From Candidatus Omnitrophota bacterium (GTDB lineage Bacteria; Omnitrophota; Gorgyraeia; Zapsychrales; JANLHA01): 64,000 nt of DNA. Location: the NCBI GenBank assembly GCA_038222225.1, contig JBBRHV010000005.1, positions 1,824-65,823 of the forward strand. The letters run 5' to 3'. Position numbers and translations under genes: made by a program. Below the pieces are notes generated by a model. That model had not been told where the DNA came from, searched no databases, and was given only the letters and a program-made list of their open reading frames with translations. How positions within the stretch are numbered: position 1 is the stretch's first letter; the number at the start of each line of letters is the position of its first letter. Shown here piece after piece: positions 43,995 to 61,713 of this stretch.

Positions 43995-44038
43995 TATAAT
44001 GCCGTTTTACAGGTGGCATTTTAAAAAGAGGGTGTGGA

Positions 44039-45545: not shown

Positions 45546-45558
45546 TAAGGAAACACAA

Positions 45559-46593
45559 ATGTTTAATTGTCCGATCCCGAAATCTGATCACGAAAAAATT
45601 TTACTTGGCCATGGTAGCGGCGGAGTCTTGATGCATCAGCTGATTGAAAAAGTTTTTAAAAAGACTTTTGAGAATCCGCTGCTTGCTCAAAATCATGACA
45701 GCACAGTTCTGGACTTTTCTGGAGCAAGGCTGGCCGTCACCACGGATTCCTATGTTATTCATCCGTTGTTTTTTCCCGGCGGGGATATTGGTTCCTTGGC
45801 GGTGCACGGGACAGTGAACGATCTGGCCATGTCCGGCGCCAAGCCGCTGTATCTGACGGTGGGATTTATTTTGGAAGAAGGGTTTGCGGTCGAAGATTTG
45901 CGGCGCATTGTTCAGTCCATGCAGAACGCAGCAGAGGAATCCAATATTCAGATCATTGCCGGCGACACCAAGGTCGTGGATCGCGGCAAAGGCGACGGGG
46001 TCTTTATTAACACAACCGGTATCGGAGTTGTTGAGCATGCCTTAAATATTTCTCCGCGCAGCGTTCAGCCTGGGGATGCGATCATTTTAAGTGGGGATAT
46101 CGGTCGGCACGGCATTGCGATCATGGCCCAACGGGAAGGTTTGCAGTTTGAATCCACCATTGAGAGTGATTCGGCATCTTTGTCAGCCATGATTCTTCCG
46201 CTTTTTCAAAAAAAGATTGATGTTCATTGTTTGCGTGATTTAACCCGTGGCGGGCTGGCCACCGCACTTAATGAGATCGCGCAAGATTCAGGTTTTCACA
46301 TCACGATTGAAGAGAACGAAATCCGCGTGGAGGAACAGGTCCGCGGCGCATGTGAGATCTTAGGCCTGGATCCGCTTTATGTCGCTAACGAAGGGCGCTG
46401 CATTGTTTTTGTTCCGGCTGAGCAGGCCGCAGAGACGCTTTCCACTTTAAGGGAGCATCAGCAAGGCCGGCAGGCGGTCGCGATCGGCTGTGTCTCTGAG
46501 ATACAAGACAAGCGGGTGACTTTAAAAAGTTCGCTAGGCACGGTCCGCATTATTGATATGCTTTCCGGCGAACAGCTTCCGCGGATTTGCTGA
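45559..46593 (+). CDS. hypE: Hydrogenase maturation factor HypE
   Basis: AIR-synthase-like fold with the C-terminal PRIC cysteine. Confidence 0.95.
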
Positions 46594-46691
46594 TTCAAAG
46601 GGCGCTGGTTTTTTATACTTGACAAATGCAAAGAAAATTGTATACTTTAGCTAGTTAATCAACTTAGTCTGGATTTTGTTGGGGAGGTAGC

Positions 46692-47114
46692 ATGCGTATT
46701 TCTGCCAAATGTGATTATGCCTGCCGGGCTTTGCTGGAGCTTTCTTTGCATTGGCCTAAAAAAGAGCCGTTGCAACTTCAGAATATTTCCGGTAAGCAAA
46801 ATATTCCGGTCAAATATCTGGTTCAGATCTTTATTCAGCTCAAAAGAGACGGGCTTGTCGTAAGCTCCAGAGGAAAAGACGGAGGATATCTTTTAGGAAA
46901 AACGCCGGACGCGATAAGCTTGGGTGACGTTATGCGATGTATGGGAGGAGCGCTTTTATCGAGATCCGATGCTTTAAGGAAAGAACCGTCTGTTTTTAGT
47001 GGGGTATGGGATCAGCTTGAAGGAGCAATGACCACAGTGGTTGATCATGTCACATTTGAAGATATTTGTGCAAAAAGCCAAGAGAAAGATAAAATTTTAA
47101 TTTTTCAGATATAA
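46692..47114 (+). CDS. Rrf2-family transcriptional regulator (IscR/CymR-like)
   Basis: MRISAKCDYACRALLELS... wHTH with the Rrf2 signature, preceded by a TTGACA-16-TATACT promoter. Confidence 0.8.
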   Translation: MRISAKCDYACRALLELSLHWPKKEPLQLQNISGKQNIPVKYLVQIFIQLKRDGLVVSSRGKDGGYLLGKTPDAISLGDVMRCMGGALLSRSDALRKEPSVFSGVWDQLEGAMTTVVDHVTFEDICAKSQEKDKILIFQI

Positions 47115-47169
47115 AAAAATTTTAACTTTAATATTACTAAAATAGTCAACAAGATAAGGTAGGTGGAAA

Positions 47170-47391
47170 TTGGAAAATAAAATGCGCGCTTTGGCTAAAG
47201 CCATTACTTGGAGATTATTTGGGTTTATCTCAACTATCGTGATTGTTTATATATATAGCAAGAACATAAAAGAAGCATTGATGGTTGGCGTAGGAGTCGA
47301 TGGTGTAAAGGTGGTTTTGTATTATGTTCATGAGCGTATTTGGAATCGAGTCAATTTTGGAAGAAAAATTATACCAGAATTCAATATTTAA
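47170..47391 (+). CDS. Small predicted membrane protein (possibly DUF2061-like)
   Basis: 73-aa ORF with two hydrophobic helices, located between the Rrf2 regulator and cysH. Confidence 0.35.
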   Translation: MENKMRALAKAITWRLFGFISTIVIVYIYSKNIKEALMVGVGVDGVKVVLYYVHERIWNRVNFGRKIIPEFNI

Positions 47392-47417
47392 GAAATTTAA
47401 AATAGGATTTTAGAGTT

Positions 47418-48149
47418 ATGAAAAAGGAAAACTTTTTAGAAATTAACAGAGATTTTTCACAGCTGAGCCCAGAAGAAGTTCTTTCATGGGCGTTATCGAA
47501 ATTTGACAAGGAGCGTTTGGCGTTTTCCTCAAGCATGGGGGCGGAAGATCAGGTAATCACGCACATGCTTAAGACCATGGGTTTGAGCATATCAATTTTT
47601 ACAATTGATACAGGGCGCTTATATCCAGAAACGTATGATCTTATTAAGAGAACAGAACAAAAATATGGTTTTCGTTACGATATTTTAGAACCAGAACAAA
47701 CAAAAGTTAATGGCATGGTTTCTGAACATGGGGAAAATTTATTTTATGAAAGTTTAGAATTAAGAAAAATGTGCTGTCATGTAAGAAAACTGGAGCCTCT
47801 TCGCAAAAAAATGTTTACGCTTGATGCCTGGATTTGCGGATTAAGGAAAGAACAATCCGTCACAAGGGCTGAGATTGGAAAAATTGAATGGGACGAAACA
47901 TTTGGAGTTGTTAAAATCAATCCGCTTACGGATTGGACAGAAGATCAGGTTTGGTCTTATATTCGAAAGAACAATATCCCGTATCACGCACTTCATGACA
48001 GCGGATATCCCAGTATCGGATGTGCGCCGTGTACCCGGGCCATTCAGCCTGGTGAAGATGTCAGGGCAGGACGCTGGTGGTGGGAAAATCCCCAGAACCG
48101 TGAATGCGGTTTGCATAGGGGGCCTAAGAAAAAAGGAAATTTGCAATGA
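47418..48149 (+). CDS. cysH: Adenylylsulfate (APS) reductase, thioredoxin-dependent, [4Fe-4S]-type CysH
   Basis: PAPS-reductase fold with the catalytic ECGLH motif, plus the Cys pair CC (KMCCHV) and CxxC (GCAPCT) that are diagnostic of APS-specific Fe-S enzymes. Confidence 0.85.
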
Positions 48150-49030
48150 TGGACACATTAGCGCGCCTTGAAGCAAAAAGTGTTTATATTCTCCGTGAGG
48201 CCTATCGCGAGTTTAAACAGCTGGCCATGTTATGGTCAGTTGGGAAAGACAGCACCGTCCTGTTATGGTTGACGCGTAAAGCTTTTTTTGGGCATGTTCC
48301 TATGCCATTGGTCCATATTGATACGCATTTTAAAATTCCAGAAATGATTGCTTACCGGGACCGCTTGGCCGCCGAATGGCATCTGAATTTGATTTACGGA
48401 GAGAACGCCGAGGCCTTGGCGAATAAGGAGACGTTTCCCGACGGCAACGTAGATCGTTTGACCTGCTGCCGGAAATTGAAAAGCGAAGCCCTTAAAAAAA
48501 CAATTTCCGGAGAATGGCCGCGTTATCGTTTTGATCATAGTCTTGGAAAATATGTGCAGGACGCCAATACGGAAGGGTATACTGGCGTTATTGTCGGCGC
48601 ACGCGCAGATGAAGAAGGGAGCCGGTCTAAGGAGCGGTATTTTTCTCCACGCGACCGGCAGAGCGACTGGGATGTGGCGGGTCAGCCGCCGGAACTTTGG
48701 AATCAATTTAAGACTGATTTTGCGCCGGGCACGCATGTTCGGATTCATCCTCTTTTAGATTGGACAGAGCTGAATATTTGGGAATATATTCAGAGAGAAA
48801 ACATCCCGATCATTGATCTTTATTTTGACAAAGGAAAAGGCTTGCGGTATCGTTCTTTAGGCTGTGCCCCTTGCACGGGGACGGTTGTTTCGTCAGCCAA
48901 AAATGTCGCTGAGATTATTGAGGAACTTAAGAACGGAAAATTTGTAAATATTGCTGAACGTAGCGGCCGCGCTCAAGATAAAGAAGACGGCGGTGGATTA
49001 GAAACATTGCGTCGAGAGGGGTATATGTAA
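48146..49030 (+). CDS. cysD: Sulfate adenylyltransferase subunit 2
   Basis: PP-loop SVGKDS and the CysD family architecture. It overlaps the cysH stop by 4 nt. Confidence 0.9.
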
Positions 49031-49032
49031 TC

Positions 49033-50865
49033 ATGAAAAACACAACAGCCAGAATATTGGAACCGACTCGTGGCGGGATTGAGAAAGAAGAGCAGATGAC
49101 GATTGTCATCGTGGGGCATGTTGATCACGGAAAAAGCACGGTGATCGGCCGGCTTCTTGCAGATACGCGCTCGTTGCCCGAAGGCAAGCTTGAACAGGTG
49201 AAGCGAACGTGTGAAAGAAACGCAAGGCCGTTTGAATACGCCTTTCTTCTTGACGCCTTAAAGGATGAACAGGCTCAGGGAATCACCATTGATAGTGCCA
49301 GGGTTTTTTTCAAAACGCAGAAGAGGAGATATATTATTTTTGATGCCCCTGGACACATTGAGTTTTTGAAAAACATGGTAACCGGAGCGGCGCATGCTCA
49401 GGCCGCGCTTTTGGTTATTGATGCCCATGAAGGCATTAAGGAAAACTCCCGTCGGCACGGATATCTCTTGTCCATGTTAGGAGTTCGGCAGGTCAGCATT
49501 TTGGTGAACAAGATGGATCTTGTGGGGTGGAGCAAGGAAATTTTTGATGGTGTTGTTAAACAGTATTCAGAATTTCTTTTTTCCATCGGGGTTAAGCAGG
49601 TATCGTTTATTCCCATCAGCGCGTTTCACGGCGACAATCTTACCGAGAATTCATCAAGCGCGGGCTGGTATTCCGGATTGACGGTCCTTCAGCAGCTGGA
49701 TGCCTTTAACGTCCCACGGCCCTTGGAGGATTTGCCATTGCGGTACCCTGTGCAGGATATTTATAAATTTACCGAGGAGGGAGACGAGAGGCGCATCGTT
49801 GCCGGTACGATTGAATCAGGAACGGTTTGCGTGGGAGAGGACATCGTTTTTCTTCCGTCGAATAAAACGGCTGGAATTTTGTCAATCGAAGAGTTTAGCC
49901 GTCCACCTGCTGATAGTGCGCACGCCGGACAAGCGGTGGGGGTTACGCTGGATACGCAGCTTTACATTAAGCCCGGTGAGATCATGGTCAAAAAGACGGA
50001 GAGAAATCCATGCGTTTCAACTCGGTTTAAGGCAAATCTTTTTTGGTTGGGAAAAGCTCCGCTCATTAAGAATAAACGGTATTATCTGAAGTTGTCCACC
50101 GCGCGTGTACCGGCCCAGGTTTCCGAGATCTACACAGTTATTGATGCCGCGGAACTTTCTACCACGGCACAAGACGGGCAGGTGAACACTAATGAGGTTG
50201 CGGAGATCGTTGTAGAGACTGAAAAGCCAATTGCTTTTGATCTTGCCGGAGAGATCGAAGCAACGACACGTTTTGTGATCATTGATAATTATGAAATTTC
50301 CGGTGGAGGCATTATAACTGAGGCGTTGAAATCATCGGCCGAGGTCCTGAAAGAGCATGTTCGTCAGCGTGAATTTATCTGGGTTAGGGGAGAAATCAGG
50401 GCGGCAGAACGGCAAAAAAGCATCGGGCATGGAGCGGCTTTTGTTCTTGTAAGCGGGCCCCAGGACACAGGTAAAATCGCTGCGGCCAAGGCGATTGAAT
50501 CCGTGCTGGTAAAGTCAGGCTATAACGCGTATTATCTTGGCGTTTCTAACCTGCTTTGCGGATTGGATGCCGATCTGCTGTTTAAATATGAAGATAAAGG
50601 AGAACATTTACGGCGTCTGGGAGAATTGGCGCACATTATGACGGATTCCGGTCTTATTTTTATAGCGACAGCATCAGATATCGATGAATATGATCTTGCG
50701 CGTTTACGGACATTAGCCGAACCGGTTAAGACATTAGCGATTCATTTTGGAAAAGAGGGAACAGGAGCTCTTGCTTCAGACGGATTTTTTTTGAACAACC
50801 CTTCCATAGATAAAGTGACGGCTCATGTTGTTGATTTGCTAAGAAAACATGATATTGTACCCTGA
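49033..50865 (+). CDS. cysN: Sulfate adenylyltransferase subunit 1 (GTPase CysN) fused to a degenerate APS-kinase-like C-terminal domain
   Basis: G1 motif GHVDHGKST and EF-Tu-like domains. The C-terminal ~180 aa are APS-kinase-like, but the P-loop is SGPQDTGKI rather than GxSGSGKST, and the DGDNxRxGL motif is degraded to [10 protein letters not shown]. Confidence 0.88.
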
Positions 50866-50887
50866 GGAAAGAGAGGGACTTCGTCAC

Positions 50888-51385
50888 ATGTCTGAAGGCA
50901 ATGCGAAAAAAAAGCGAGTTGATCGTCCGATGCGCTTTCTTCCGGTGGGAATTGATATTAAAGGCAAAAAAATTCTTGTTTTTGGCGGAGGGCGGATTGC
51001 TTTGCAGAAGCTGCGCACGATCCTTCTTTTTAACCCAAAAGTCACGGTTGTGGCGCCGAAAATTTTATCCGAGATAAAGGACATGGGAGTAGATTGGGTG
51101 GAAGAAATTTTTAGCCGGAATCATCTGGCAGAAGCATTTCTTGTTTATGCGTGCACTTCGGACCCGGAAACAAACCGTGTCATCGCGAGTGAGGCCGGCG
51201 AGAGAGGAATTCTCTGTAATGTCGCCGACGATACGGATGCCTGCGCTTTTATTTCTCCCGCGGTTGCTGTGGCTGATGATCTGGTTATTTCGGTTAATTC
51301 TCAGGGAAGAAATCCAAATCTGTCTAGGGTGGTAAGAGATTTTATTAAGGAGAGCGTTGATGAATTTCTGCATGGTCGGGATTGA
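50888..51385 (+). CDS. sirC: Precorrin-2 dehydrogenase / siroheme synthase N-terminal-like protein (SirC/CysG-N)
   Basis: Rossmann motif KKILVFGGGRIALQKL and the CysG N-terminal-domain architecture. Confidence 0.7.
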   Translation: MSEGNAKKKRVDRPMRFLPVGIDIKGKKILVFGGGRIALQKLRTILLFNPKVTVVAPKILSEIKDMGVDWVEEIFSRNHLAEAFLVYACTSDPETNRVIASEAGERGILCNVADDTDACAFISPAVAVADDLVISVNSQGRNPNLSRVVRDFIKESVDEFLHGRD

Positions 51386-52337
51386 TTATCATCAGGCGCC
51401 AGTGGCGGTGAGGGAGCGCGCTTTTCTTTCTCGGGATCGCGTCTCGGTAGTGGCGAGGGATCTTATGGCGCTGTTTAAGGCCCAAGGCGTTTTTATTTTA
51501 TCGACCTGTGCCCGGACAGAGATATACGCGCAGGGAATCAGCGTGGAAGAATTGCAGTCGGCTTTTATCATGCTTTGCCAAGGAGAAAAATCTTTTTTAG
51601 AATTACGTCAAGGCAGGGATGCCATTGCGCATCTTTTTACGGTTGCTTCTGGGGCGGAATCTCCGGTTTTTGGTGATTCGAATATTGTTCGTCAGATCAA
51701 GGAAGCGTATTTTTTGGGGCGGGAAACAGGAACGTTGACCAGGCTTCTTTCCCGGGTTTTGGAAAGGACGTTGTGCGCGGGTCGAGATATACGCAGGGCG
51801 TTGCAGCTCACACAGAGAGAAGGGGATGTTGCTGTTCGGGCAATTCAGCTGGCGATTCAAAAACATAAGGGCCTGAAGGGAAAAAATATTTATGTGATTG
51901 GGTGCGGCGTGGTCGGACAGTCTTTGATCGAAGAGCTGTGTCAGCAACGGGCACGGATTCAGATCGTAGCCAACCGACGGCATGATCGGGCGTCGTTCAT
52001 CGCGCAGGAACATGGCTGTTTGGCAGTACGCTTTGAAGATTTTTATAACGGTTTAGCCGAAGCAGATCTGATTTTTAGCGCCACCAACAGCCCTCATTAT
52101 GTTGTATCTAGGGATATGTTTGAGCGCAGGGTTCCTGCGGATAAAGAAATGGTTATTTTTGATTTGGCGGTCCCGCGGGATATTGACAATAACATTGAGG
52201 GGTTTTCGGGGGTTAGGATTTATACCATTGACGACATAGGAGCTCCGGGAGAGGAAAGGCTTGTTTCCCAGGCTCGGCATATTGCACATTGCAAAGCAAA
52301 GGCGTTTTTTGCCAGGGAGAAGATCCATGCGGTTTAG
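51357..52337 (+). CDS. hemA: Glutamyl-tRNA reductase (short form, lacks C-terminal dimerisation domain)
   Basis: N-terminus MVGIDYHQAPVAVRERAFLS, catalytic Cys in LSTCARTEIY, and a NADPH-binding domain. At 326 aa it is shorter than the ~420-aa canonical enzyme. Confidence 0.85.
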   Translation: MMNFCMVGIDYHQAPVAVRERAFLSRDRVSVVARDLMALFKAQGVFILSTCARTEIYAQGISVEELQSAFIMLCQGEKSFLELRQGRDAIAHLFTVASGAESPVFGDSNIVRQIKEAYFLGRETGTLTRLLSRVLERTLCAGRDIRRALQLTQREGDVAVRAIQLAIQKHKGLKGKNIYVIGCGVVGQSLIEELCQQRARIQIVANRRHDRASFIAQEHGCLAVRFEDFYNGLAEADLIFSATNSPHYVVSRDMFERRVPADKEMVIFDLAVPRDIDNNIEGFSGVRIYTIDDIGAPGEERLVSQARHIAHCKAKAFFAREKIHAV

Positions 52338-52983
52338 AATCGGTACGCGGCCGAGCCCTTTAGCATTAGCACAGGTGCAGGAGGTTGTCACGCTCATAAG
52401 ACACAAGGGAGTCGATATGGATGTTGACATCGTTCCTATTGATTCTGACGGAGATTTAGACAAAAAGACGCCGTTTATACAAATAGAAGGGACGGATTTT
52501 TTTACCCGTAGACTTGAGGAAGCCTTGCGCCGGAATGAGATTGATTTGGCGGTGCATAGCGCTAAAGATTTAGAAGATGATTTACCGGAAGATTTGACGA
52601 TCGCGTTGATGACACCGTCCTTGAGTTCTTGTGAGTGTCTGGTTGCTCGAGAGAAGGGGTATTCTTTGGAGACCTTACCGGAGGCAAGCCGCATTGGAAC
52701 GAGCAGCCGCAAAAGGCAGAAAGCCCTTTTTCGATACCGGGCAGATTTTGTTGTCAAAGGCATTCGAGGCAATATAGAGGAACGATTGCAGCAGTTGGAT
52801 CATGGTGATTATGAGGCTCTTATTATGGCGCATGCGGCTCTGTTACGGCTGGGGATGGAAGGACGAATCAGTGAGATTATTTCCGGGGACATTATGCCTC
52901 CGCATCCTTTGCAGGGCAGGATTGCGGTTCAAGTCTTGAGCGAGAGGGAGGATCTTTTGAAATTATTAGGGGAATTGTGCTGA
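52327..52983 (+). CDS. hemC: Porphobilinogen deaminase, domains 1-2 only (C-terminal domain 3 absent)
   Basis: MRFRIGTRPSPLALAQ N-terminus and the HSAKDLEDD motif. The ORF ends after about 219 aa at ...LLGELC, before the region that carries the dipyrromethane-cofactor cysteine in canonical HemC. Confidence 0.75.
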   Translation: MRFRIGTRPSPLALAQVQEVVTLIRHKGVDMDVDIVPIDSDGDLDKKTPFIQIEGTDFFTRRLEEALRRNEIDLAVHSAKDLEDDLPEDLTIALMTPSLSSCECLVAREKGYSLETLPEASRIGTSSRKRQKALFRYRADFVVKGIRGNIEERLQQLDHGDYEALIMAHAALLRLGMEGRISEIISGDIMPPHPLQGRIAVQVLSEREDLLKLLGELC

Positions 52984-54389: not shown

Positions 54390-55381
54390 TGGTTCAAAAC
54401 AAAAAGAAAACTCATTGGACTCAATGGAAGAGCAAGCTCATTGAGGATCCGGTATTGCCTTATTTTGTTATTGAGGGCAAGAGTACTGTTCAGCCGATCA
54501 AAAGCATGCCCGGAGTGAACAGGTTTTCTGTTGATGAGCTTGTGAAAGATGTTGATTCTGCCAGACAACTCGGAATAAAAACAATCTTGCTGTTCGGTGT
54601 TGTATCCAATAGAAAAAAAGATGATTTAGGAGGCAATGCTTTTTGTCCGGATGATCTTATTTCAAGGGCTGTGAAGGAGATAAAGGATAAAATTAGAGGG
54701 GTAACGGTGATAACAGATGTCTGTCTTTGCGCATACACCACGCATGGGCATTGCGGGATCTTAACGGGACATGAAGGGGCAATAGATAGACGTAAGACGC
54801 TTAAGGCGCTTTCGGAGATGGCCCTTCGGCATGCTGAGGCCGGGGCCGATTGGGTGGCTCCTTCTGCGATGGCAAAAGGTCAGGTGGCGGCTATCCGACA
54901 GAAACTTGATTCCAACGGATTTCATCGGGTCAACATACTTGGCTATTCGGCAAAATTCGCCTCTGTGTTTTATGGGCCGTTTCGGGAAGCGGCGAAGTCA
55001 GCGCCGGCCTTTGGAGACCGTCGGGAATATCAGTTTGCTTCGGCAGACAGCGCCCGCGCGTTGCGTAGAATTGCCGCAGACATAAGGGAGGGGGCGGATA
55101 TGGTGATGGTGAAGCCGGCCCTTGCGTATCTCGATGTGATTCGCCAAGCAAAAGAAAAATTTCGTGTTCCGGTGGCGGCGTATAATGTGAGCGGGGAATA
55201 CGCGCTGATGAAGCTCGGCGCAAAAAAAGGATATTGGGATGAACAGGCTGCTCTTGCTGAGATCATGACTTCGATCCGACGCGCCGGAGCGGATGTGATC
55301 ATCTCGTATCATGCCAAGGACATTGTTCGGCGGAAAAACGCAGAGAAAAAAACTCTAAAAAGTTTTAATGGGGGAGAGTAG
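54389..55381 (+). CDS. hemB: Porphobilinogen synthase (delta-aminolevulinate dehydratase)
   Basis: Conserved active-site region (VMVKPALAYLDVI, YNVSGEYAL). About 330 aa; the track ORF starts upstream at 54335 in the same frame. Confidence 0.9.
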   Translation: MVQNKKKTHWTQWKSKLIEDPVLPYFVIEGKSTVQPIKSMPGVNRFSVDELVKDVDSARQLGIKTILLFGVVSNRKKDDLGGNAFCPDDLISRAVKEIKDKIRGVTVITDVCLCAYTTHGHCGILTGHEGAIDRRKTLKALSEMALRHAEAGADWVAPSAMAKGQVAAIRQKLDSNGFHRVNILGYSAKFASVFYGPFREAAKSAPAFGDRREYQFASADSARALRRIAADIREGADMVMVKPALAYLDVIRQAKEKFRVPVAAYNVSGEYALMKLGAKKGYWDEQAALAEIMTSIRRAGADVIISYHAKDIVRRKNAEKKTLKSFNGGE

Positions 55382-55384
55382 AGA

Positions 55385-57070
55385 ATGAAAGCCAAAGAAG
55401 ATTTGACGCAGGTTGAAAAAGATAAGATCGAAATTGGGTTTGATGCTGATTTTAAGGAGATTGCCAAACGTTCGCTGGAGTCTATTCCACCAAATGAAGT
55501 GGCACTGTGGAAATGGGCCGGGGTTTATCAGCAGCTGCAAAAAGGGTTTTTTATGATCCGCCTGCGGATCCCGGGAGGCCTTATGACCAGCGAACAACTT
55601 GAGCGGGCCGCTGATCTGTCTTCGGAGCTGGCTCAGGACCAGCTGTGCATTACAACACGGCAGTGTTTGCAATTTCATTGGATCCGCAAGGAAGATATTC
55701 ATAAAATTTTGGAAGGAATGAAAGAAGTCGGGATCCTGACAAAAAATGCCTGCGGAGATGTGACCCGAAATGTGGTGACTTGTCCGCTTCCCGGTGTTTG
55801 TCCGCATGAGGAAGGGGACACGTTGAATATGCTGCAGCTGATCGCTGATGATCCGGAGATGTTGGATCAGCAGCGGAATTTGCCACGCAAGCATAAAATC
55901 AGCGTGGCAGGTTGCGGACGTGCCTGCGGGCAGACGCTGATGAACTGTCAGGGATGGCATCCGATTCATCGAGAAGGCCGAACGGGATGGAGGTTTTACG
56001 CGGGCGGAGGTTTGGGGGCTAAGCCGTATTTGGGAAAATTAATTTTTGATTGGGTTCCGGAAGATCTTGTGGTGGATGTCGCGCGTGCTGTGACAGAAGT
56101 ATTCCGCCGTTTGGGGAATCGTAAGGTCAGGGCTTTAGCGAGGCTGAAGATCGTTGTGGATCGTCTCGGGGTCAAGGGTTTTGCCCAGGAAGTTCTTCAG
56201 GAATTAAGCGATCGTAAGGTATCCGGCATCGCAGGAATCGTTGTTGCGGAGTCTTCCGCGGAAATAGAAGAGAGCTTTCTTCAGGGGCAAGCGGTTATCC
56301 CTCAGCGGCAGACGGGCCTTTATGCGGTCCGCGCGATGATTCAGCGCAGTGAATTAACAAGTCAGGAAGCGCGGAGGTTTGCACAGTGGGCGCAGGGGTA
56401 CGGAGACGGAACAGTTGTTTTTACACACCGGCAGAATTTGGTATTTCGCTCGGTTGCGTTCAATAAGACCGAAGAACTGTTGGGGTTGCTGAAAAATGCG
56501 GGGTATCGTATTGAGGGGTTTGAACACTTACCGGATATGGTTGCCTGCGTAGGAACAACGGTGTGTAACCTGGCGGTGTCGGATACGCCCAACACGTATC
56601 GGAGCATGATGGAGAAACTCACATCGGACGCGGATTGGTGGAAAAATATCGGGCCTTTAAGGATTAACATGAATGGTTGTCCTAATTCGTGCGGGCAGCA
56701 TGCGGTTGCGGATATCGGATTGCGCGGGCTGCGCAAAAGGACTGAACAGGGATCGGAGGAAGGATATAGTATTTTTGTCGGCGGCTCCTTGTCCGGCGCC
56801 GGGCATCTCGGGGAATACGTGTGTGATGCAACGGCTTCCCAGGTAATTGCGACCGTTAAGAAGATTTTGACAGTCTATCTTCAGAAGCGCTTGTCGCCGG
56901 AGGAATATTTTGGTGTTTTTTCTCGACGGGTAACCGGAGCCGGAATGAAAGACATGCTGGGAAGCAGAGAAGTCGAATCTGATTTTGTGCAGGAAAGAAA
57001 TCAGAAGTATCAGGCTGTTTTTCAAGCAACAATTGATTCGACCCGAGAACAAAAAAGAGATAAATCATGA
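55385..57070 (+). CDS. sir: Ferredoxin-type assimilatory sulfite (nitrite/sulfite) reductase hemoprotein, siroheme/[4Fe-4S]
   Basis: Two NIR_SIR ferredoxin-like half domains and the siroheme-cluster Cys motifs (CGDVTRN...C; CPNSCGQH). Confidence 0.85.
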   Translation: MKAKEDLTQVEKDKIEIGFDADFKEIAKRSLESIPPNEVALWKWAGVYQQLQKGFFMIRLRIPGGLMTSEQLERAADLSSELAQDQLCITTRQCLQFHWIRKEDIHKILEGMKEVGILTKNACGDVTRNVVTCPLPGVCPHEEGDTLNMLQLIADDPEMLDQQRNLPRKHKISVAGCGRACGQTLMNCQGWHPIHREGRTGWRFYAGGGLGAKPYLGKLIFDWVPEDLVVDVARAVTEVFRRLGNRKVRALARLKIVVDRLGVKGFAQEVLQELSDRKVSGIAGIVVAESSAEIEESFLQGQAVIPQRQTGLYAVRAMIQRSELTSQEARRFAQWAQGYGDGTVVFTHRQNLVFRSVAFNKTEELLGLLKNAGYRIEGFEHLPDMVACVGTTVCNLAVSDTPNTYRSMMEKLTSDADWWKNIGPLRINMNGCPNSCGQHAVADIGLRGLRKRTEQGSEEGYSIFVGGSLSGAGHLGEYVCDATASQVIATVKKILTVYLQKRLSPEEYFGVFSRRVTGAGMKDMLGSREVESDFVQERNQKYQAVFQATIDSTREQKRDKS

Positions 57071-59424
57071 AGCCAGAAAAAATATTTGAGGCCCGGAGGT
57101 GTTTAGAACAGGGAAAAAATGACGAGGCCATTGATCTCTTGAGGTCAGAAGAAGCGCCGCATCATGCTGAGGCTTGTGTATTGTTAGCCCGGGCGTATTA
57201 TCAGCGCGGGGATACACGAGGCGATATTTATAGCAGTCATTTTTTTGCCCAGCGGGCTTTGTCCCTTGGGTTGCAAACAGATGAAGTGTTGGCAATGTAC
57301 GCGGTGACCTCTTTTCAGAAAGAACAGTATACAGAGGCTGTTTTTGCGTTTGAACAGTTTGTGACCGCTGATTCGCCAGCCGGGACGATGTTGTTGTTTG
57401 GGTTGGCCCTGGTTTACAGCGGCAGGGAAATGGAAGGAAAACTTTGGATCGAGAAGGCTAGCCAAAAAGATCCAGCCTGTCAGGAGAAGGCGAAGGAGGG
57501 GGTTCTTTTTTCTCAGAAAGAAAAGACATTAAAGATATCGTCGACCGGGAACATGTATGAATCCCGTTTGGAGCAGCTAAAGTTTTCCGAGCAAGCAGAA
57601 ATCCCAGCCCTTTATGAGCATCAGCCGTTGTCGATGCTGCGCGGTCAGGGAGAGTCGCTAAAAGATTTTGATTGGATGGACAAGAATGTTCCCTGTCAGA
57701 AGGCCTGTCCGGCGGGAACAGATATTCCGGAATACTTGAACGCGATTTTTTTAAAAGAATATGACAGGGCTTACCGGATCAATCTGTGGGACAATGTTTT
57801 TCCCGGGGTTTTAGGACGTGTTTGTGCCCGGCCGTGTGAGGAAAAATGCCGCCATGGCTGGCCGGGGCTTGGACAGCCGGTTGCGATTTGTTGGAGTAAG
57901 CGGGCCGCGGCAGATCACAGGTCAAGTGAGACCGGACGGCTTAAAGCTCTTTTTTCTTCCAGTGGCAAGAGCGTTGCAGTCATTGGCGCTGGTGTGGCGG
58001 GCTTGGCAGCCGCCAGGCAGCTGGCCCTGTGTGGACATGCTGTCACTGTGTATGAAAAACATAAGATTCCGGGTGGGATGATGAATCAAGGAATTCCGGA
58101 GTTTCGTTTGCCTCGGGAGGTTATCCAAAGGGAAATAGAACAGGTTCTGGCTTGCGGGGTTCGTTTAGAATGCGGCAAGGACATTGGCAAAGATATTTTG
58201 TTTGAAGATTTTGTAAAATCTCATGAGGCGGTAATTGTGGCAGCCGGAACATTGCGCCCTAATAAGCTTGAGCTTCCCGGCGCTGAGATTTCCGGAATTT
58301 ATCATGGGCTGGAATTTTTGTTAAGCGTTAATGAGTATGGGCGGCGGGATATCGGGAAGAATGTCATTGTTATCGGAGGAGGCTTTACCGCGATGGATTG
58401 CGCCCGTACCGCTTGGCGGTTGGGGGCTAAAAGCGTCCGTGTTCTTTATCGCCGCTCAGTTGAGGAGATGCTGATTACGCCCGGCGAACTGGAGGAGTTG
58501 AGCCAGGAGGGTATACCTATGGAATTTTTAATAGGCCCTGTGGCATACCTTGGCCAGGCAGGTCAAGGCTTGAGTGCGGTACGTTTTATCCGTAATGAAC
58601 TGGGGGCGCCAGATCAAAGCGGACGACGGCGACCGGTGCCGATTCAAGGAAGCGAATTTAACGTTGAGGCTGATATGGTTCTTTTAGCTACCGGGCAATT
58701 TGCTGACACGTCTTGGATAGGAGGGCCGTTGAGCGATAAAATTTGCGATAGCTCGGGAAGGGTCTTGGGCACAGGGGGATGCCGGACAAATATCGAGAAT
58801 GTTTTTCTGGCCGGGGATTTCGCGCAGGGAGCGTCATCTTTGATTAGCGCAATTGCTCATGCCAAACAAACGGCACGTGAGGTTGACCGATTTTTGACCG
58901 GCAAAGAGCGGTTTAAGGATGTTGTGCGTGTTCAGGACGCACAGACCACCGGACGGATCCGCGAAATGGATGCTGTTCCCCGGGTTGATATGCCGGTCAT
59001 CACAACGGATCAAAGAGACCTGCGGGCTGAAGTCGAAAAAGGATTAGATCCGGCTTTAGCCATCGACGAAACTCAGCGCTGCTATCTTTGTCATTACAAA
59101 TTTGAGATTGATCAGGATAAGTGCATTTATTGCGATTGGTGTATTAAAGCTAAGCCGCGGCCTAATTGTATCCTGAAGGTTAAAGAAATTATCCGTGACG
59201 AAGAAGGGCGGACCAAAGATTTTGTATTTGCCAAGAGCAGCGAAGAAACTAAGTTTATTTATATTAATCAGGAAGATTGTATCCGTTGTCATGCCTGTGT
59301 TTTGGCTTGTCCGGTGGGGTGTATTCATGTTCAGAAGGTGTCCCTGCAGACAAAAGTTTGTGATGGTTCACAAAAAGGAAAGAGCGCTGGATCGAATTCT
59401 TGTGGTTCTTGCGGGTCTCGATAA
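57067..59424 (+). CDS. TPR-repeat / GltD-like NAD(P)H flavin oxidoreductase / 2x[4Fe-4S] ferredoxin fusion protein
   Basis: N-terminal ~200 aa of TPR-like repeats. The central region has GltD-type Fe-S Cys motifs (CQKACPAG, GRVCARPCEEKC) and two dinucleotide-binding motifs (VAVIGAGVAG, VIVIGGGFTAMD). The C-terminal region has CIYCDWC...CP and CIRCHACVLACP. Confidence 0.7.
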   Translation: MKPEKIFEARRCLEQGKNDEAIDLLRSEEAPHHAEACVLLARAYYQRGDTRGDIYSSHFFAQRALSLGLQTDEVLAMYAVTSFQKEQYTEAVFAFEQFVTADSPAGTMLLFGLALVYSGREMEGKLWIEKASQKDPACQEKAKEGVLFSQKEKTLKISSTGNMYESRLEQLKFSEQAEIPALYEHQPLSMLRGQGESLKDFDWMDKNVPCQKACPAGTDIPEYLNAIFLKEYDRAYRINLWDNVFPGVLGRVCARPCEEKCRHGWPGLGQPVAICWSKRAAADHRSSETGRLKALFSSSGKSVAVIGAGVAGLAAARQLALCGHAVTVYEKHKIPGGMMNQGIPEFRLPREVIQREIEQVLACGVRLECGKDIGKDILFEDFVKSHEAVIVAAGTLRPNKLELPGAEISGIYHGLEFLLSVNEYGRRDIGKNVIVIGGGFTAMDCARTAWRLGAKSVRVLYRRSVEEMLITPGELEELSQEGIPMEFLIGPVAYLGQAGQGLSAVRFIRNELGAPDQSGRRRPVPIQGSEFNVEADMVLLATGQFADTSWIGGPLSDKICDSSGRVLGTGGCRTNIENVFLAGDFAQGASSLISAIAHAKQTAREVDRFLTGKERFKDVVRVQDAQTTGRIREMDAVPRVDMPVITTDQRDLRAEVEKGLDPALAIDETQRCYLCHYKFEIDQDKCIYCDWCIKAKPRPNCILKVKEIIRDEEGRTKDFVFAKSSEETKFIYINQEDCIRCHACVLACPVGCIHVQKVSLQTKVCDGSQKGKSAGSNSCGSCGSR

Positions 59425-59439
59425 AGAGTCGGCGGAACA

Positions 59440-60714
59440 TTGAGGAAATCAATAGTTATGGGGTTGTCAAGCAAAGTGAACAACAAGAAATTATTACGCT
59501 CAGCCCGCGCGTGTTTGGTCGGAGGGGTCAACAGCCCTGTTCGCAGTTTTTCCGCGGTTGGGCAGGATTCGTTTATCATCAAAAAGGGGCGAGGGCCATA
59601 TCTGTATGATCATGATGGAAAACGCTATATCGATTACGTGCTGTCGTGGGGTGCGGCGATTTTTGGCCATGCGCATTCTCCGATTGTTAAGGCTGTTCAG
59701 GATAGTGCTCGCAATGGAACGCATTTTGGAGTTACAACTTGCGTAGAGATCGAATTAGCCCAAATGATTCAGGGGGCGATCTCTTTTGTTGAAAAGGTCC
59801 GTTTTGTGAATTCAGGGACCGAGGCGGTCATGGGTGCGGTGCGGCTGGCCAGGGGGTTTACCGGCAGAGACATTATTCTGAAATTTGAACATTCGTATCA
59901 TGGTCATGCTGATTATCTGTTGGCAAAGGCAGGATCAGGATTAGCAACACTTGGGATTCCGGCTAGTAAGGGGGTGCCTAAAGATTTCACCCGAAAAACA
60001 TTGATTGCCCCTGCCGGAGATTGGGAGGCCGTGGAAAGAATCTTTCAACGGCATGGCAAGCAGATTGCCGCTGTGCTGGTGGAGCCCGTTGGAGGGAATT
60101 ACGGCGTGACCCCTCCGGATCAGGAGTTTTTACAAAAATTGCGCCGGATAACACAGCGGAATGGAGCCCTGCTAATCTTTGATGAAGTGATTACAGGGTT
60201 TCGTTTTCATTATGGCGCGGCAGCGGATCTTTTTGGCGTTACGCCTGATTTGATCACGTTAGGAAAGATTATTGGAGGAGGGCTTCCGGTCGGGGCGTTT
60301 GCCGGCCCGGAAAAAATTATGCGGCACTTGGCTCCGTTAGGGCAGGTTTATCAGGCGTCAACCTTTGCCGGGAATCCGATTGTCATGGCAGCAGGGAAAG
60401 CAACGCTGAGGGCTCTTAAGGAGAAGAAAAAGGAGTATTCCCGGCTCAGTCGGTATGGAAATGTATTGGCCTCGACATTGAAAGAATCGCTTTCAAGAAG
60501 AAAGATGAATGTTTCTGTTGTTCAGCATCATTCGATGCTGAGCGTCAGATTTCTTGACGGCAGGGTATTTAGAAAGTTCTACCAGGGCATGTTTCAGCAA
60601 GGGATCTTTCTGGCCCCGTCTGAATTTGAAGTGAATTTTATTTCATTTGCCCATCAGGAGAAAGATATTCATCGCACGCAATCTGCGATGGAGCGCTCGA
60701 TCGCTGCGCTTTAA
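59440..60714 (+). CDS. hemL: Glutamate-1-semialdehyde 2,1-aminomutase
   Basis: GGVNSPVRSF N-terminus and the class III aminotransferase PLP Lys in LITLGKIIGGG. Confidence 0.9.
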   Translation: MRKSIVMGLSSKVNNKKLLRSARACLVGGVNSPVRSFSAVGQDSFIIKKGRGPYLYDHDGKRYIDYVLSWGAAIFGHAHSPIVKAVQDSARNGTHFGVTTCVEIELAQMIQGAISFVEKVRFVNSGTEAVMGAVRLARGFTGRDIILKFEHSYHGHADYLLAKAGSGLATLGIPASKGVPKDFTRKTLIAPAGDWEAVERIFQRHGKQIAAVLVEPVGGNYGVTPPDQEFLQKLRRITQRNGALLIFDEVITGFRFHYGAAADLFGVTPDLITLGKIIGGGLPVGAFAGPEKIMRHLAPLGQVYQASTFAGNPIVMAAGKATLRALKEKKKEYSRLSRYGNVLASTLKESLSRRKMNVSVVQHHSMLSVRFLDGRVFRKFYQGMFQQGIFLAPSEFEVNFISFAHQEKDIHRTQSAMERSIAAL

Positions 60715-61607: not shown

Positions 61608-61713
61608 GGAGAATTTTAAAAATGAAAAGCAAAAAGGATGTGGTCAAAAAAAATTGACATAGGGTAGGGGGGTATGGTATATTTAAAGTGCGAACAAGAA
61701 GGAGAACGCAGTT

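What the first reader, a model, noticed from the sequence alone, without database searches (positions are those of the whole stretch)
46692..60714. Sulfate assimilation and siroheme biosynthesis fused into one ~14-kb co-directional gene string
An Rrf2 regulator is followed by a small membrane protein, APS reductase, cysD, cysN, a sirC-like gene, hemA, hemC, the cobA-hemD fusion, hemB, ferredoxin-type sulfite reductase, a TPR-GltD-ferredoxin protein and hemL. The tetrapyrrole genes present are exactly those needed to make uroporphyrinogen III, precorrin-2 and sirohydrochlorin from glutamyl-tRNA. The later heme steps (hemE, hemN, hemG, hemH) are absent from the cluster. This looks like a self-contained module that builds the siroheme cofactor together with its only obvious client, sulfite reductase. 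No sirohydrochlorin ferrochelatase (SirB/CbiX) is recognisable, so the short sirC-like protein may be bifunctional.
Basis: partly seen in the sequence, partly recalled or inferred. Interest (0 to 1): 0.6.

Follow-up and report, generated by a model that had tools for sequence, protein, structure and literature searches.

The report
Sulfate assimilation operon with built-in siroheme pathway
This is a real, tightly packed operon in an uncultured bacterium that puts the genes for reducing sulfate next to all the genes for making siroheme, the cofactor its sulfite reductase needs; the layout has a published precedent, but several of its proteins are unusual.

Summary
Thirteen co-directional genes (46692-60714) encode exactly the proteins listed, with overlapping or near-touching stop and start codons and one strong promoter-like site ahead of the Rrf2 gene.

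Related PVC-group genomes, mostly Candidatus Omnitrophota and Kiritimatiellales, repeatedly link the same hem/siroheme genes to a siroheme sulfite reductase. Three different reductase types occur: NirA-type, a small 242-aa type, and AsrABC. This argues for functional coupling.

The arrangement itself is not new. Clostridium thermocellum has a described, co-regulated Rrf2-porphyrin/siroheme-sulfate locus (PMC4676874).

Three things are less ordinary:
- The TPR-GltD-ferredoxin protein has DsrL-like architecture with the NADP(H) YRR motif. It follows the sulfite reductase in 47 of 47 loci, so it is probably a dedicated NADPH electron donor. I found no paper describing this.
- SirC, HemA and HemC are all truncated. 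HemC lacks domain 3 and its cofactor cysteine. Relatives fuse these enzymes.
- The chelatase question stays open. The SirC-like protein keeps the catalytic Asp of bifunctional CysG/Met8p but lacks the helical domain that forms half of the substrate pocket.

Whether the hem genes serve only siroheme cannot be decided from 64 kb.

The parts
46619..46646 (+). Promoter-like site, TTGACA-16 nt-TATACT (11 of 12 matches), 45 nt upstream of the Rrf2 start
   Evidence: The same CTTGACAA...TATA(C/T)T architecture heads the equivalent operons in L086 and L087.
46653..46664 (.). Near-palindromic operator-like element AGTTAATCAACT, just downstream of the -10 box. Candidate Rrf2 binding site (inferred).
   Evidence: Its reverse complement AGTTGATTAACT sits at the same position after the -10 box in L087. 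It is the only match in the window at up to 1 mismatch, against 0.29 expected by chance.
46692..47114 (+). Rrf2-family regulator without the three-Cys Fe-S ligand set (CymR-like)
   Evidence: PF02082, E = 4e-28. Best specific NCBIfam model is CymR, 77.7 bits, below its 195-bit cut-off. There is no Cys between residues 84 and 125.
47170..47391 (+). DUF2061 small membrane protein, a recurrent companion of cysH
   Evidence: PF09834, E = 1e-14. Found next to cys genes in L009, L012, L021, L025, L030, L046, L086 and L087.
47418..48149 (+). CysH, thioredoxin-dependent Fe-S APS reductase
   Evidence: TIGR02055, 265 bits against a 235-bit cut-off. Cys119-Cys120, Cys202-x2-Cys205, and an ECGLH motif at Cys230.
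48146..49030 (+). CysD, sulfate adenylyltransferase small subunit. This subtype has its own CC...CxxC signature.
   Evidence: NF003587, 348 bits. Cys107, 108, 240 and 243 are conserved in 7 of 7 close homologues. The ATGA overlap with cysH is visible.
49033..50865 (+). CysN GTPase subunit with a degenerate C-terminal APS-kinase-like domain
   Evidence: TIGR02034, 344 bits. The APS_kinase hit covers only profile positions 4-81 of 152. The P-loop reads GPQDTGKI.
50888..51385 (+). Short SirC-like precorrin-2 dehydrogenase, possibly also the chelatase. It is 165 aa as called in the source record; Omnitrophota homologues favour Met28 at 50930 (151 aa).
   Evidence: PF13241 and cysG_Nterm, profile positions 1-145 of 205. 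Aligns to CysG residues 2-146 with the K27, N101, D104, S128, P133, R137 and R140 equivalents kept. No Sirohm_synth_M or CysG_dimeriser hit even at E <= 1.
51360..52337 (+). HemA, glutamyl-tRNA reductase without the C-terminal dimerisation domain
   Evidence: TIGR01035, 217 bits against a 210-bit cut-off, profile positions 3-314 of 416. Matches M. kandleri GluTR residues 5-304 of 404. The catalytic-Cys motif STCARTE is present.
52327..52983 (+). HemC, hydroxymethylbilane synthase consisting of domains 1 and 2 only (218 aa)
   Evidence: TIGR00212, profile positions 2-214 of 293. The E. coli alignment stops at residue 207 of 313. AlphaFold pLDDT is 94.9, with TM 0.89 to 1PDA over 217 columns. 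There are at least 120 homologue clusters of 215-225 aa.
52983..54389 (+). CobA-HemD fusion: uroporphyrinogen-III C-methyltransferase plus uroporphyrinogen-III synthase
   Evidence: PF00590 at residues 9-224 and PF02602 at 275-466. The start ATG overlaps the hemC stop (TGATG).
54389..55381 (+). HemB, Zn-type porphobilinogen synthase. The ORF could also start at 54335.
   Evidence: PF00490, E = 2e-123. Cys130, 132 and 140 lie in the motif DVCLCAYTTHGHCG.
55385..57070 (+). NirA/Sir-type siroheme-[4Fe-4S] sulfite reductase hemoprotein with an extra Cys quartet in its N-terminal half
   Evidence: Two NIR_SIR_ferr + NIR_SIR repeats. Cys388, 394, 432 and 436 are invariant in 54 of 54 homologues. Cys133, 139, 177 and 181 are present all-or-none in 34 of 54. 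Nearest solved structures are plant nitrite reductase and M. tuberculosis NirA.
57067..59424 (+). TPR + DsrL-like iron-sulfur flavoprotein. Inferred NADPH:sulfite-reductase oxidoreductase.
   Evidence: Fer4_20, Pyr_redox_2 and Fer4 domains. The model shows nine N-terminal helices (3-148), an NfnB-like body and a C-terminal ferredoxin domain. The YRR motif at 461-463 is invariant. SiR lies directly upstream in 47 of 47 TPR-bearing homologues.
59440..60714 (+). HemL, glutamate-1-semialdehyde 2,1-aminomutase. An alternative ATG start is at 59458.
   Evidence: NF000818, 537 bits; TIGR00713, 519 bits.

Best explanation
The string is one sulfur-assimilation operon of a PVC-group bacterium, probably Candidatus Omnitrophota. 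The complete pathway from glutamyl-tRNA to sirohydrochlorin/siroheme is nested between the sulfate-activation genes and the siroheme-dependent sulfite reductase that consumes the product.

Proposed working:
1. Transcription starts at the promoter at 46619-46646 and is controlled by the first gene product, a cluster-less CymR-like Rrf2 repressor. It probably binds the near-palindrome that overlaps the transcription start (inferred).
2. CysDN makes APS, and the Fe-S APS reductase CysH makes sulfite.
3. HemA, HemL, HemB, HemC and HemD make uroporphyrinogen III. CobA makes precorrin-2. The short SirC-like protein oxidises precorrin-2 to sirohydrochlorin. These roles follow from family membership.
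4. The iron-insertion step is unassigned.
5. The NirA-type hemoprotein reduces sulfite. It receives electrons from NADPH through the translationally coupled TPR-DsrL-like protein, along the route FAD, then N-terminal Fe-S clusters, then the C-terminal 2x[4Fe-4S] domain. The TPR domain acts as the docking module. This step is inferred from invariant gene pairing and architecture.

The truncated SirC, HemA and HemC, which relatives fuse to one another, suggest that these enzymes work as a physically associated assembly (inferred).
For: Gene identities.

Operon structure:
- One 11-of-12 promoter match lies ahead of rrf2, and no enriched terminators lie inside the string.
- Stop/start overlaps such as ATGA and TGATG, or gaps of at most 15 nt, occur at cysH/cysD, cysD/cysN, sirC/hemA, hemA/hemC, hemC/cobA, hemD/hemB, hemB/SiR, SiR/DsrL-like and DsrL-like/hemL.

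Recurrent coupling in relatives:
- L086 and L087 (Omnitrophota): DUF2061-cysH-sirC-hemA-hemC-cobA-hemB-hemL-small SiR-Rrf2.
- L088: sirC-hemA::hemC-asrA-asrB-asrC-cobA/hemD-hemB-hemL.
- L089: cobA-sirC-cysH-cysD-cysN.
- Five Kiritimatiellales loci: hemL-hemB-hemC::cobA::hemD-sirC::hemA, divergent from SiR-DsrL-like-cysH.

Electron donor:
- SiR is immediately upstream in 47 of 47 TPR-bearing homologues, and in 0 of 21 TPR-less paralogues. This holds even where no other cys gene is nearby.
- The domain order matches the DsrL definition, and the NADP(H) YRR motif is invariant (PMC7596348).
- The TPR domain has only 38 matches among 1.84 billion representatives, and the best ones are N-terminal.

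Precedent for co-regulation of such a locus: PMC4676874.
Against: - No expression data exist for this uncultured organism. Co-transcription and sulfur responsiveness are inferred only.
- The closest homologue of the DsrL-like protein (68% identity) sits in a cys operon that carries only cobA and no hemA, C, D, B or L. The hem nesting is therefore variable, not obligatory.
- The sulfite reductase is closer in sequence to plant nitrite reductases than to plant or E. coli sulfite reductases.
- The string has no chelatase and no sulfate transporter.
- The N-terminal Fe-S domain of the DsrL-like protein lacks two of the Cys ligands of the distal NfnB cluster (against PMC7596348).
- HemC lacks the domain that carries the cofactor cysteine in every characterised enzyme. 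Its activity is assumed from conservation, not shown.
Confidence: 0.65

Rival explanations
1. The hem block is simply the organism's general tetrapyrrole trunk operon, the sirC-hemA-hemC-cobA/hemD-hemB-hemL order known from clostridia. It would serve cobalamin and perhaps siroheme-dependent heme synthesis as much as sulfite reductase. Its position among cys genes would then reflect compaction or shared redox regulation, not dedication to one client.
For: The gene order matches the clostridial type, and C. thermocellum has it next to sulfate genes (PMC4676874). The closest cys operon and L089 carry only cobA, or cobA with sirC. Nothing in the window excludes other tetrapyrrole consumers.
Against: The SiR and DsrL-like genes are inserted inside the hem block, between hemB and hemL. 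Three unrelated siroheme sulfite reductase types are inserted in or attached to the same block in relatives. No cbi/cob or ahb gene lies in any of these loci.
Confidence: 0.25
2. The NirA-type enzyme and its DsrL-like partner do not assimilate sulfur. They would detoxify or respire sulfite, or reduce nitrite, with the cys genes merely adjacent.
For: DsrL proper works with dissimilatory DsrAB (PMC7596348). The best solved matches are nitrite reductases. L088 nests AsrABC, usually regarded as an anaerobic sulfite reductase, in the same operon without cys genes.
Against: In this window the pair is translationally coupled into a string with cysH, cysD, cysN and a CymR-like regulator. In about half of 54 related loci cysH, cysD or cysN lies within 5 kb. 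M. tuberculosis NirA, the next-best structural match, is a sulfite reductase by my own knowledge. No nitrate or nitrite transport or reduction genes are nearby.
Confidence: 0.08
3. The adjacency is fortuitous and the genes are not co-expressed.
For: There is no experimental transcript evidence. Weak internal promoter-like matches exist.
Against: Nine junctions overlap or are separated by at most 15 nt. Only the outer promoter scores 11 of 12. The linkage recurs across orders of the PVC group.
Confidence: 0.02

Closest known systems
Clostridium thermocellum Clo1313_0107-0124 locus (PMC4676874)
   Same: An Rrf2-family regulator gene is followed by porphyrin/siroheme biosynthesis genes (including hemB and hemL), sulfate assimilation genes (APS reductase, cysD/N-type genes) and a ferredoxin-type nitrite/sulfite reductase. 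The blocks change expression together.
   Different: The order differs: hem genes first, then a sulfate ABC transporter, then the reduction genes. The window's string has no transporter. It inserts the reductase pair inside the hem block, and it has a DsrL-like partner and truncated SirC, HemA and HemC.
Bacillus subtilis cysH operon with sirA (ylnD), sirB (ylnE) and sirC (ylnF), and CymR control (my own knowledge, not checked here)
   Same: Sulfate activation and reduction genes are co-transcribed with the siroheme branch. A cluster-less Rrf2 regulator (CymR) governs sulfur genes.
   Different: Bacillus includes only the three steps after uroporphyrinogen III and has a separate SirB chelatase. 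hemAXCDBL is a separate operon, and the sulfite reductase is CysJI.
DsrL, NAD(P)H:acceptor oxidoreductase of DsrAB (PMC7596348)
   Same: Both have the NfnB/GltD-like N-terminal Fe-S domain, an FAD domain with an embedded NAD(P) domain, a linker and a C-terminal 2x[4Fe-4S] ferredoxin domain. The window's protein has the YRR motif of the NADP(H)-specific DsrL-2 type. Both partner a siroheme sulfite reductase.
   Different: The partner here is a monomeric assimilatory NirA-type enzyme, not DsrAB. There is an additional ~150-residue N-terminal TPR domain. The linker is shorter (about 55-60 residues against about 100). Two distal-cluster Cys positions are absent.
CysG(B) / Met8p bifunctional dehydrogenase-ferrochelatase, versus B. 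megaterium SirC (PMC7018833)
   Same: Both have the Rossmann fold plus the short dimerisation segment. The catalytic Asp (CysG D104) is kept; the paper says this Asp is conserved in bifunctional enzymes and replaced by Ser in monofunctional SirC. The P133, R137, R140, K27 and N101 equivalents are also kept.
   Different: The protein ends near CysG residue 155, so the all-helical domain that contributes R162, K166, R175 and W179 to tetrapyrrole binding is missing. The DAPK loop reads DDTD. In relatives the protein is fused to HemA.
E. coli CysJI and plant/cyanobacterial ferredoxin-SiR
   Same: Both use a siroheme-[4Fe-4S] hemoprotein with the Cx5C...Cx3C ligand set and reduce sulfite by six electrons.
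   Different: The proposed electron donor is neither a diflavin reductase (CysJ) nor free ferredoxin. It is an NfnB/DsrL-like Fe-S flavoprotein. The hemoprotein also carries a second Cys quartet in its N-terminal half.

Membership tests
Bifunctional precorrin-2 dehydrogenase / sirohydrochlorin ferrochelatase (CysG-B, Met8p) | NAD-binding Rossmann domain (PF13241, GxGxxA) | tested here: met
   PF13241, E = 3e-28; TIGR01470, 96.5 bits against a 62.3-bit cut-off. The VFGGGRIA motif is visible.
Bifunctional precorrin-2 dehydrogenase / sirohydrochlorin ferrochelatase (CysG-B, Met8p) | Catalytic Asp (CysG D104 / Met8p D141-144), absent from monofunctional SirC | tested here: met
   NVAD aligns with CysG NVVD. 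The Asp is invariant in 8 relatives. The criterion comes from PMC7018833.
Bifunctional precorrin-2 dehydrogenase / sirohydrochlorin ferrochelatase (CysG-B, Met8p) | DAPK capping loop with Pro106 | tested here: not met
   The loop reads DDTD in the window and L088, and DKPL or DGPV in L086 and L087.
Bifunctional precorrin-2 dehydrogenase / sirohydrochlorin ferrochelatase (CysG-B, Met8p) | All-helical C-terminal domain supplying R162, K166, R175 and W179 to the tetrapyrrole pocket | tested here: not met
   The protein ends about 9 residues after the position aligned with CysG 146. Profile coverage is 1-145 of 205. There is no PF14824 or PF10414 hit at E <= 1.
Bifunctional precorrin-2 dehydrogenase / sirohydrochlorin ferrochelatase (CysG-B, Met8p) | Iron insertion into sirohydrochlorin | not testable with these tools
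   Needs an enzyme assay or complementation of a cysG mutant.
DsrL (PMC7596348 criteria) | N-terminal NfnB-type two-cluster domain | tested here: inconclusive
   PF14691 hit at residues 206-286. Cys210, 214, 253, 257, 261 and 275 are invariant. The two positions equivalent to NfnB Cys39 and Cys42 are not Cys.
DsrL (PMC7596348 criteria) | FAD Rossmann domain with an embedded NAD(P) domain; YRR motif for NADP(H) | tested here: met
   PF07992 at residues 302-598. Matches NfnA/NfnB/GltD structures with E down to 3e-89. Y461, R462 and R463 are invariant in 26 sequences.
DsrL (PMC7596348 criteria) | [quoted passage not shown] | tested here: met
   Fer4 and Fer4_7 hits in residues 612-785. The CxxCxxCxxxCP motif is at 738-749, with Cys672, 675, 686, 689, 692 and 701 as well. 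The model shows a separate small domain at residues 670-765. The linker is shorter than in DsrL.
DsrL (PMC7596348 criteria) | Encoded in an organism with dsrAB and functionally tied to DsrAB | tested here: not met
   The gene is coupled to a NirA-type assimilatory reductase here and in 47 related loci. No dsr gene lies in the window. The rest of the genome could not be examined.
Assimilatory siroheme sulfite/nitrite reductase (NirA/Sir/CysI superfamily) | Two NIR_SIR_ferr + NIR_SIR repeats and the Cx5C...Cx3C siroheme-[4Fe-4S] ligands | tested here: met
   Cys388, 394, 432 and 436 are invariant in 54 of 54 homologues.
Assimilatory siroheme sulfite/nitrite reductase (NirA/Sir/CysI superfamily) | Sulfite rather than nitrite as substrate | not testable with these tools
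   Only context speaks for sulfite (cysH, cysD and cysN here and in many related loci). All NCBIfam equivalog scores are below their cut-offs.
Hydroxymethylbilane synthase (HemC) | Domains 1 and 2 with the catalytic Asp and the Arg cluster | tested here: met
   TIGR00212, 206 bits against a 164-bit cut-off. HSAKD, TRPSPLA, SSRKRQ and RGN are conserved. TM is 0.89 to 1PDA.
Hydroxymethylbilane synthase (HemC) | Domain 3 carrying the Cys that binds the dipyrromethane cofactor (E. coli Cys242; my own knowledge) | tested here: not met
   The protein ends at about E. coli residue 220, and there is no PF03900 hit. The next gene starts with the methyltransferase domain.
Glutamyl-tRNA reductase (HemA) | Catalytic domain with the active-site Cys, and the NADPH domain | tested here: met
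   PF05201 and PF01488; TIGR01035 is above its cut-off; the STCARTE motif is present.
Glutamyl-tRNA reductase (HemA) | C-terminal dimerisation domain | tested here: not met
   Profile coverage is 3-314 of 416. Matches M. kandleri GluTR residues 5-304 of 404.
Fe-S assimilatory APS reductase (CysH) | CC...CxxC cluster ligands and the ECGLH catalytic motif | tested here: met
   TIGR02055 is above its cut-off.
CymR-type (cluster-less) Rrf2 regulator | Rrf2 winged helix without the three conserved Cys ligands of IscR, NsrR and RirA | tested here: met
   PF02082. There is no Cys in residues 84-125. Identity with CymR itself is not established, at 77.7 bits against a 195-bit cut-off.

The most novel reading that the evidence does not exclude
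The TPR-DsrL-like protein would be a third class of physiological electron donor for assimilatory sulfite reductase. It would be an NADPH-dependent NfnB/DsrL-type iron-sulfur flavoprotein docked through a family-specific TPR domain, widespread in Kiritimatiellota, Lentisphaerota, Verrucomicrobiota, Omnitrophota and some Proteobacteria. The same lineages would run the siroheme pathway with a set of minimal, mutually dependent enzymes. These include a hydroxymethylbilane synthase that has no domain 3 and no canonical cofactor cysteine, and a SirC-type enzyme whose missing half-pocket is supplied by a partner such as HemA.
Probability: 0.5. Interest if true: 0.6.

Novelty: new variant of a known kind. 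Interest (0 to 1): 0.42.

Why it matters
As a gene arrangement this is a variant of something already described, so the cluster itself is of modest interest. It is still useful in three ways.

- It shows that in a whole group of uncultured PVC bacteria tetrapyrrole synthesis is organised around sulfite reduction. That helps metabolic reconstruction of these genomes, where hem genes need not mean heme.
- It points to a testable, apparently undescribed NADPH-to-sulfite-reductase electron route related to DsrL. This bears on how the dissimilatory DsrL-DsrAB partnership arose.
- It provides natural minimal versions of HemC, HemA and SirC. The HemC versions challenge the textbook requirement for the domain-3 cysteine. 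All could be tested by simple complementation.

Tried and rejected
- **Source contig.** Exact-protein look-ups found only a 2.7-kb Logan contig for the sulfite reductase and nothing for the DsrL-like protein. Cluster look-ups gave no names. Taxonomy therefore rests on the names of HemC and SirC homologues.
- **RNA elements.** Rfam at gathering thresholds found no riboswitch or leader in the string, only 6S RNA and tRNAs elsewhere.
- **Terminators.** The terminator scan was no better than shuffled sequence and gave no convincing terminator after hemL.
- **Chelatase candidates.** The two unannotated downstream ORFs (60882-61607 and 61991-62425) give only weak outer-membrane or irrelevant hits at E <= 1. 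No CbiX, SirB or CbiK appears in any related locus inspected.
- **Frameshift artefacts.** I considered that the sirC/hemA and hemC/cobA junctions were frameshift errors splitting the fusion genes seen in Kiritimatiellales. I rejected this because each downstream gene has its own ATG, its own Shine-Dalgarno-like sequence and a canonical stop/start overlap. Separate short genes are also the rule in Omnitrophota.
- **Terminal Cys of HemC.** I considered the window HemC's terminal Cys as the cofactor site. I rejected this because it is not conserved.
- **Literature.** Searches for a GltD/NfnB/DsrL-like partner of assimilatory sulfite reductase, for domain-3-less HemC, and for Omnitrophota siroheme operons found nothing relevant.
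- **Whole-genome questions.** A second hem operon, SirB/CbiX elsewhere, and ahb or cob genes could not be addressed, because only the window and 20-kb loci are readable.


Full report
**1. Observation**

The 13 ORFs lie on the + strand at the stated coordinates. Pfam and NCBIfam confirm every assignment:
- an Rrf2 regulator
- a 73-aa DUF2061 membrane protein
- CysH
- CysD
- CysN
- a short NAD_binding_7 / cysG_Nterm protein
- HemA
- HemC
- a TP_methylase + HEM4 fusion (CobA-HemD)
- HemB
- a protein with two NIR_SIR_ferr + NIR_SIR repeats
- a 785-aa TPR + Fer4_20 + Pyr_redox_2 + Fer4 protein
- HemL

Sequence motifs fit these assignments:
- CysH has the CC...CxxC and ECGLH motifs of Fe-S APS reductases.
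- HemA has the STCxRTE active-site motif.
- HemB has the Zn Cys triad.
- The reductase has the Cx5C...Cx3C siroheme-cluster ligands.

- CysN carries a degenerate APS-kinase-like tail.
- The SirC-like protein, HemA and HemC are all C-terminally truncated.

**2. Operon anatomy**

The window is the replication-origin region. gyrA, gyrB, dnaN and dnaA lie on the minus strand up to 6.7 kb, and the GC skew changes sign near 6 kb. Everything downstream, including the string, is co-directional with replication.

Directly upstream of the string are hox-type [NiFe] hydrogenase and hyp maturation genes. hypD and hypE were verified. The others are my reading.

- The best promoter match in 17 kb (TTGACA-16-TATACT) lies at 46619-46646, between hypE and rrf2. 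A second 11-of-12 match lies at 61654, ahead of the next unit, a CsoR-like gene.
- From cysH to hemL, nine junctions are overlaps (ATGA, TGATG, up to 26 nt) or gaps of at most 15 nt, and Shine-Dalgarno-like sequences precede the internal starts.
- No riboswitch and no convincing internal terminator was found.
- A near-palindrome, AGTTAATCAACT, follows the -10 box. Its reverse complement occupies the same position in the equivalent promoter of a related locus, L087.
- The Rrf2 protein has no Fe-S ligand cysteines, so it is CymR-like rather than IscR/NsrR-like.

Co-transcription and Rrf2 control are inferred, not shown.

**3. Relatives**

Named homologues of the short HemC and the short SirC are almost all from Candidatus Omnitrophota. 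The window therefore probably belongs to that phylum or a neighbour in the PVC group.

The hem/siroheme genes are repeatedly tied to a siroheme sulfite reductase:

| Locus | Gene order |
|---|---|
| L086, L087 | DUF2061-cysH-sirC-hemA-hemC-cobA-hemB-hemL-small SiR (242 aa)-Rrf2, followed by sulfhydrylase and cysteine-synthase-type genes |
| L088 (closest SirC, 63% identity) | sirC-hemA::hemC-asrA-asrB-asrC-cobA/hemD-hemB-hemL; AsrA and AsrC score above their NCBIfam cut-offs |
| L089 | cobA-sirC-cysH-cysD-cysN |
| Five Kiritimatiellales loci | hemL-hemB-[hemC::cobA::hemD]-[sirC::hemA], divergent from SiR-DsrL-like-cysH |

Three different sulfite reductase types are attached to or inserted in the same hem block.

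The nesting is not obligatory. The closest homologue of the DsrL-like protein sits in sbp-cysTWA-cysH-cysD-cysN-cobA-SiR-DsrL-like, with no hemA, C, D, B or L.

**4. Precedent**

A paper on Clostridium thermocellum (PMC4676874) describes an Rrf2 gene (Clo1313_0107) followed by:
- porphyrin/siroheme genes (0108-0113)
- a sulfate ABC transporter (0114-0117)
- APS reductase and sulfate-reduction genes (0118-0120)
- a nitrite/sulfite reductase (0124)

These blocks show parallel expression changes. From my own knowledge, the B. subtilis cysH operon also includes the three siroheme-branch genes. The general design is therefore known, and this window is a variant of it.

**5. The electron donor**

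The 785-aa protein belongs to a well-populated full-length family. More than 120 clusters have over 50% identity across 95% or more of the length.

In 74 related loci with enough upstream DNA:
- All 47 homologues with a detectable TPR domain have the NirA-type reductase gene immediately upstream.
- Six more also have it, but their N-terminus is too diverged for tblastn.
- None of 21 TPR-less paralogues has it.

The pair also occurs alone, without other cys genes.

The protein's domain order matches the definition of DsrL, the NAD(P)H oxidoreductase partner of DsrAB (PMC7596348): NfnB-type Fe-S domain, FAD domain with embedded NAD(P) domain, linker, then a C-terminal 2x[4Fe-4S] domain. The YRR motif, which that paper links to NADP(H) specificity, is invariant here.

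The extra N-terminal domain is modelled as nine helices with good confidence. It has only 38 matches among 1.84 billion representative proteins, and the best ones are N-terminal.

I infer a dedicated NADPH:sulfite-reductase oxidoreductase with the TPR domain as docking module. I found no paper describing this. The protein is DsrL-like in how it would work. It is not a DsrL by the published criteria, because its partner is not DsrAB.

**6. The reductase**

Its nearest solved structures are plant ferredoxin-nitrite reductases and M. tuberculosis NirA.

Besides the invariant C-terminal ligand set, it has a second quartet with identical spacing in its N-terminal half: Cys133, 139, 177 and 181. This quartet is present all together in 34 of 54 homologues and absent all together in the other 20. 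It is absent from the tobacco enzyme in the alignment. It may bind an additional cluster that receives electrons (speculative).

**7. The chelatase question**

No CbiX, SirB or CbiK is recognisable in the string, in the two unknown downstream ORFs, or in the related loci.

The SirC-like protein aligns with CysG residues 2-146 and keeps the K27, N101, D104, S128, P133, R137 and R140 equivalents. [quoted passage not shown] This favours bifunctionality.

Two points count against it:
- The DAPK loop is not conserved.
- The protein ends before the all-helical domain, which in CysG supplies five of the twelve tetrapyrrole contacts, including R162, K166, R175 and W179.

Kiritimatiellales fuse this protein directly to HemA, so a partner may complete the pocket. 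I put bifunctionality at roughly one in three. The alternatives are a chelatase encoded elsewhere or a partner-dependent activity.

**8. Minimal enzymes**

- HemC (218 aa) stops at about E. coli residue 220 and has no domain 3.
- The model is very confident (pLDDT 94.9) and superposes on E. coli PBGD domains 1-2 (TM 0.89, 1.8 A).
- At least 120 homologue clusters share this length.
- The catalytic Asp and the Arg cluster are conserved. An invariant Cys lies in an ECLV motif in the Omnitrophota sequences and in L088. The Kiritimatiellales fusions have no Cys there.
- How the dipyrromethane primer is held is unexplained.
- HemA lacks the dimerisation domain.

The different fusions seen in relatives (SirC::HemA, HemA::HemC, HemC::CobA::HemD) suggest that the truncated enzymes act as an assembly.

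**9. Verdict**

As a gene arrangement this is a new variant of a known kind. The DsrL-like donor and the domain-3-less HemC are the parts most worth an experiment.

Noticed in passing
window 52327-52983; homologues P0124-P0243; L088 5214-6866: HemC has only domains 1 and 2 and lacks the domain that carries the cofactor cysteine in characterised enzymes. This is the norm in at least 120 clusters, mostly Omnitrophota. An invariant Cys in an ECLV motif is present in those, but not in the Kiritimatiellales HemC fusions.
   Followed up: partly
L047 3382-6866, L059 4869-8320, L054, L070, L031; L088 5214-6866: Relatives encode fusion proteins of neighbouring pathway enzymes with the same truncations: SirC::HemA (about 450 aa), HemC::CobA::HemD (about 700 aa) and HemA::HemC (550 aa). 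In the window these are separate, overlapping genes.
   Followed up: partly
window 55385-57070 (Cys133, 139, 177, 181): The N-terminal half of the sulfite reductase carries a second Cx5C...Cx3C quartet with the same spacing as the siroheme-cluster ligands. It is present all-or-none in 34 of 54 homologues and absent from the solved plant enzyme in the alignment.
   Followed up: partly
window 48146-49030: CysD has a CC...CxxC signature (Cys107, 108, 240, 243) like that of the Fe-S APS reductase. It is conserved in all 7 close homologues (71-77% identity) and mostly absent from the more distant CysD type in related loci.
   Followed up: partly
window 50365-50865: The C-terminal domain of CysN resembles only the first half of APS kinase. 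Its P-loop is GPQDTGKI (no Ser/Thr after Lys), so it is probably not a kinase. That fits an APS-reductase pathway, which needs no PAPS.
   Followed up: partly
window 47170-47391; L009, L012, L021, L025, L030, L046, L086, L087: The DUF2061 small membrane protein recurs beside cysH or cysN in many PVC and proteobacterial loci. Its role in sulfur assimilation is unknown.
   Followed up: no
L088 6863-9703: An AsrABC-type anaerobic sulfite reductase is inserted inside the hem operon, between hemA::hemC and cobA/hemD, in the closest SirC relative. No cys genes are nearby, and a hemerythrin gene lies upstream.
   Followed up: partly
L086 7369-14313, L087 7511-14326: These Omnitrophota operons have CobA without a fused HemD, and no HemD match in 20 kb. 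They also have a 242-aa single-repeat sulfite reductase, and a GC-rich hairpin followed by a T-run between the promoter and the first gene.
   Followed up: no
window 1-7400: This is the chromosomal origin region. gyrA, gyrB, a small ORF, dnaN and dnaA lie on the minus strand, followed by a 640-nt gap and yidC, parA and parB on the plus strand. GC skew changes sign near 6 kb. Gene names are my reading of the translations.
   Followed up: no
window 23643-23799: A 6S RNA gene (77 bits against a gathering score of 46) lies between pheT and a rarA-like gene. Four tRNA genes lie at 13577-14152 and 30627-30697.
   Followed up: no
window 34343-46593: A Rex-like regulator, hypA, hypB, a NuoE/F-like diaphorase, the small and large subunits of a group-3-type [NiFe] hydrogenase, a maturation protease, a response regulator and hypF, C, D and E sit immediately upstream of the sulfur operon. 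Only hypD and hypE were checked with profiles.
   Followed up: no
window 60882-63922: The downstream unit has its own strong promoter-like site at 61654-61683. It encodes a 241-aa protein with a weak outer-membrane beta-barrel hit, a CsoR/RicR-like metal repressor, a 144-aa unknown protein and a TolC-like outer-membrane channel. This is probably a metal-efflux locus.
   Followed up: no
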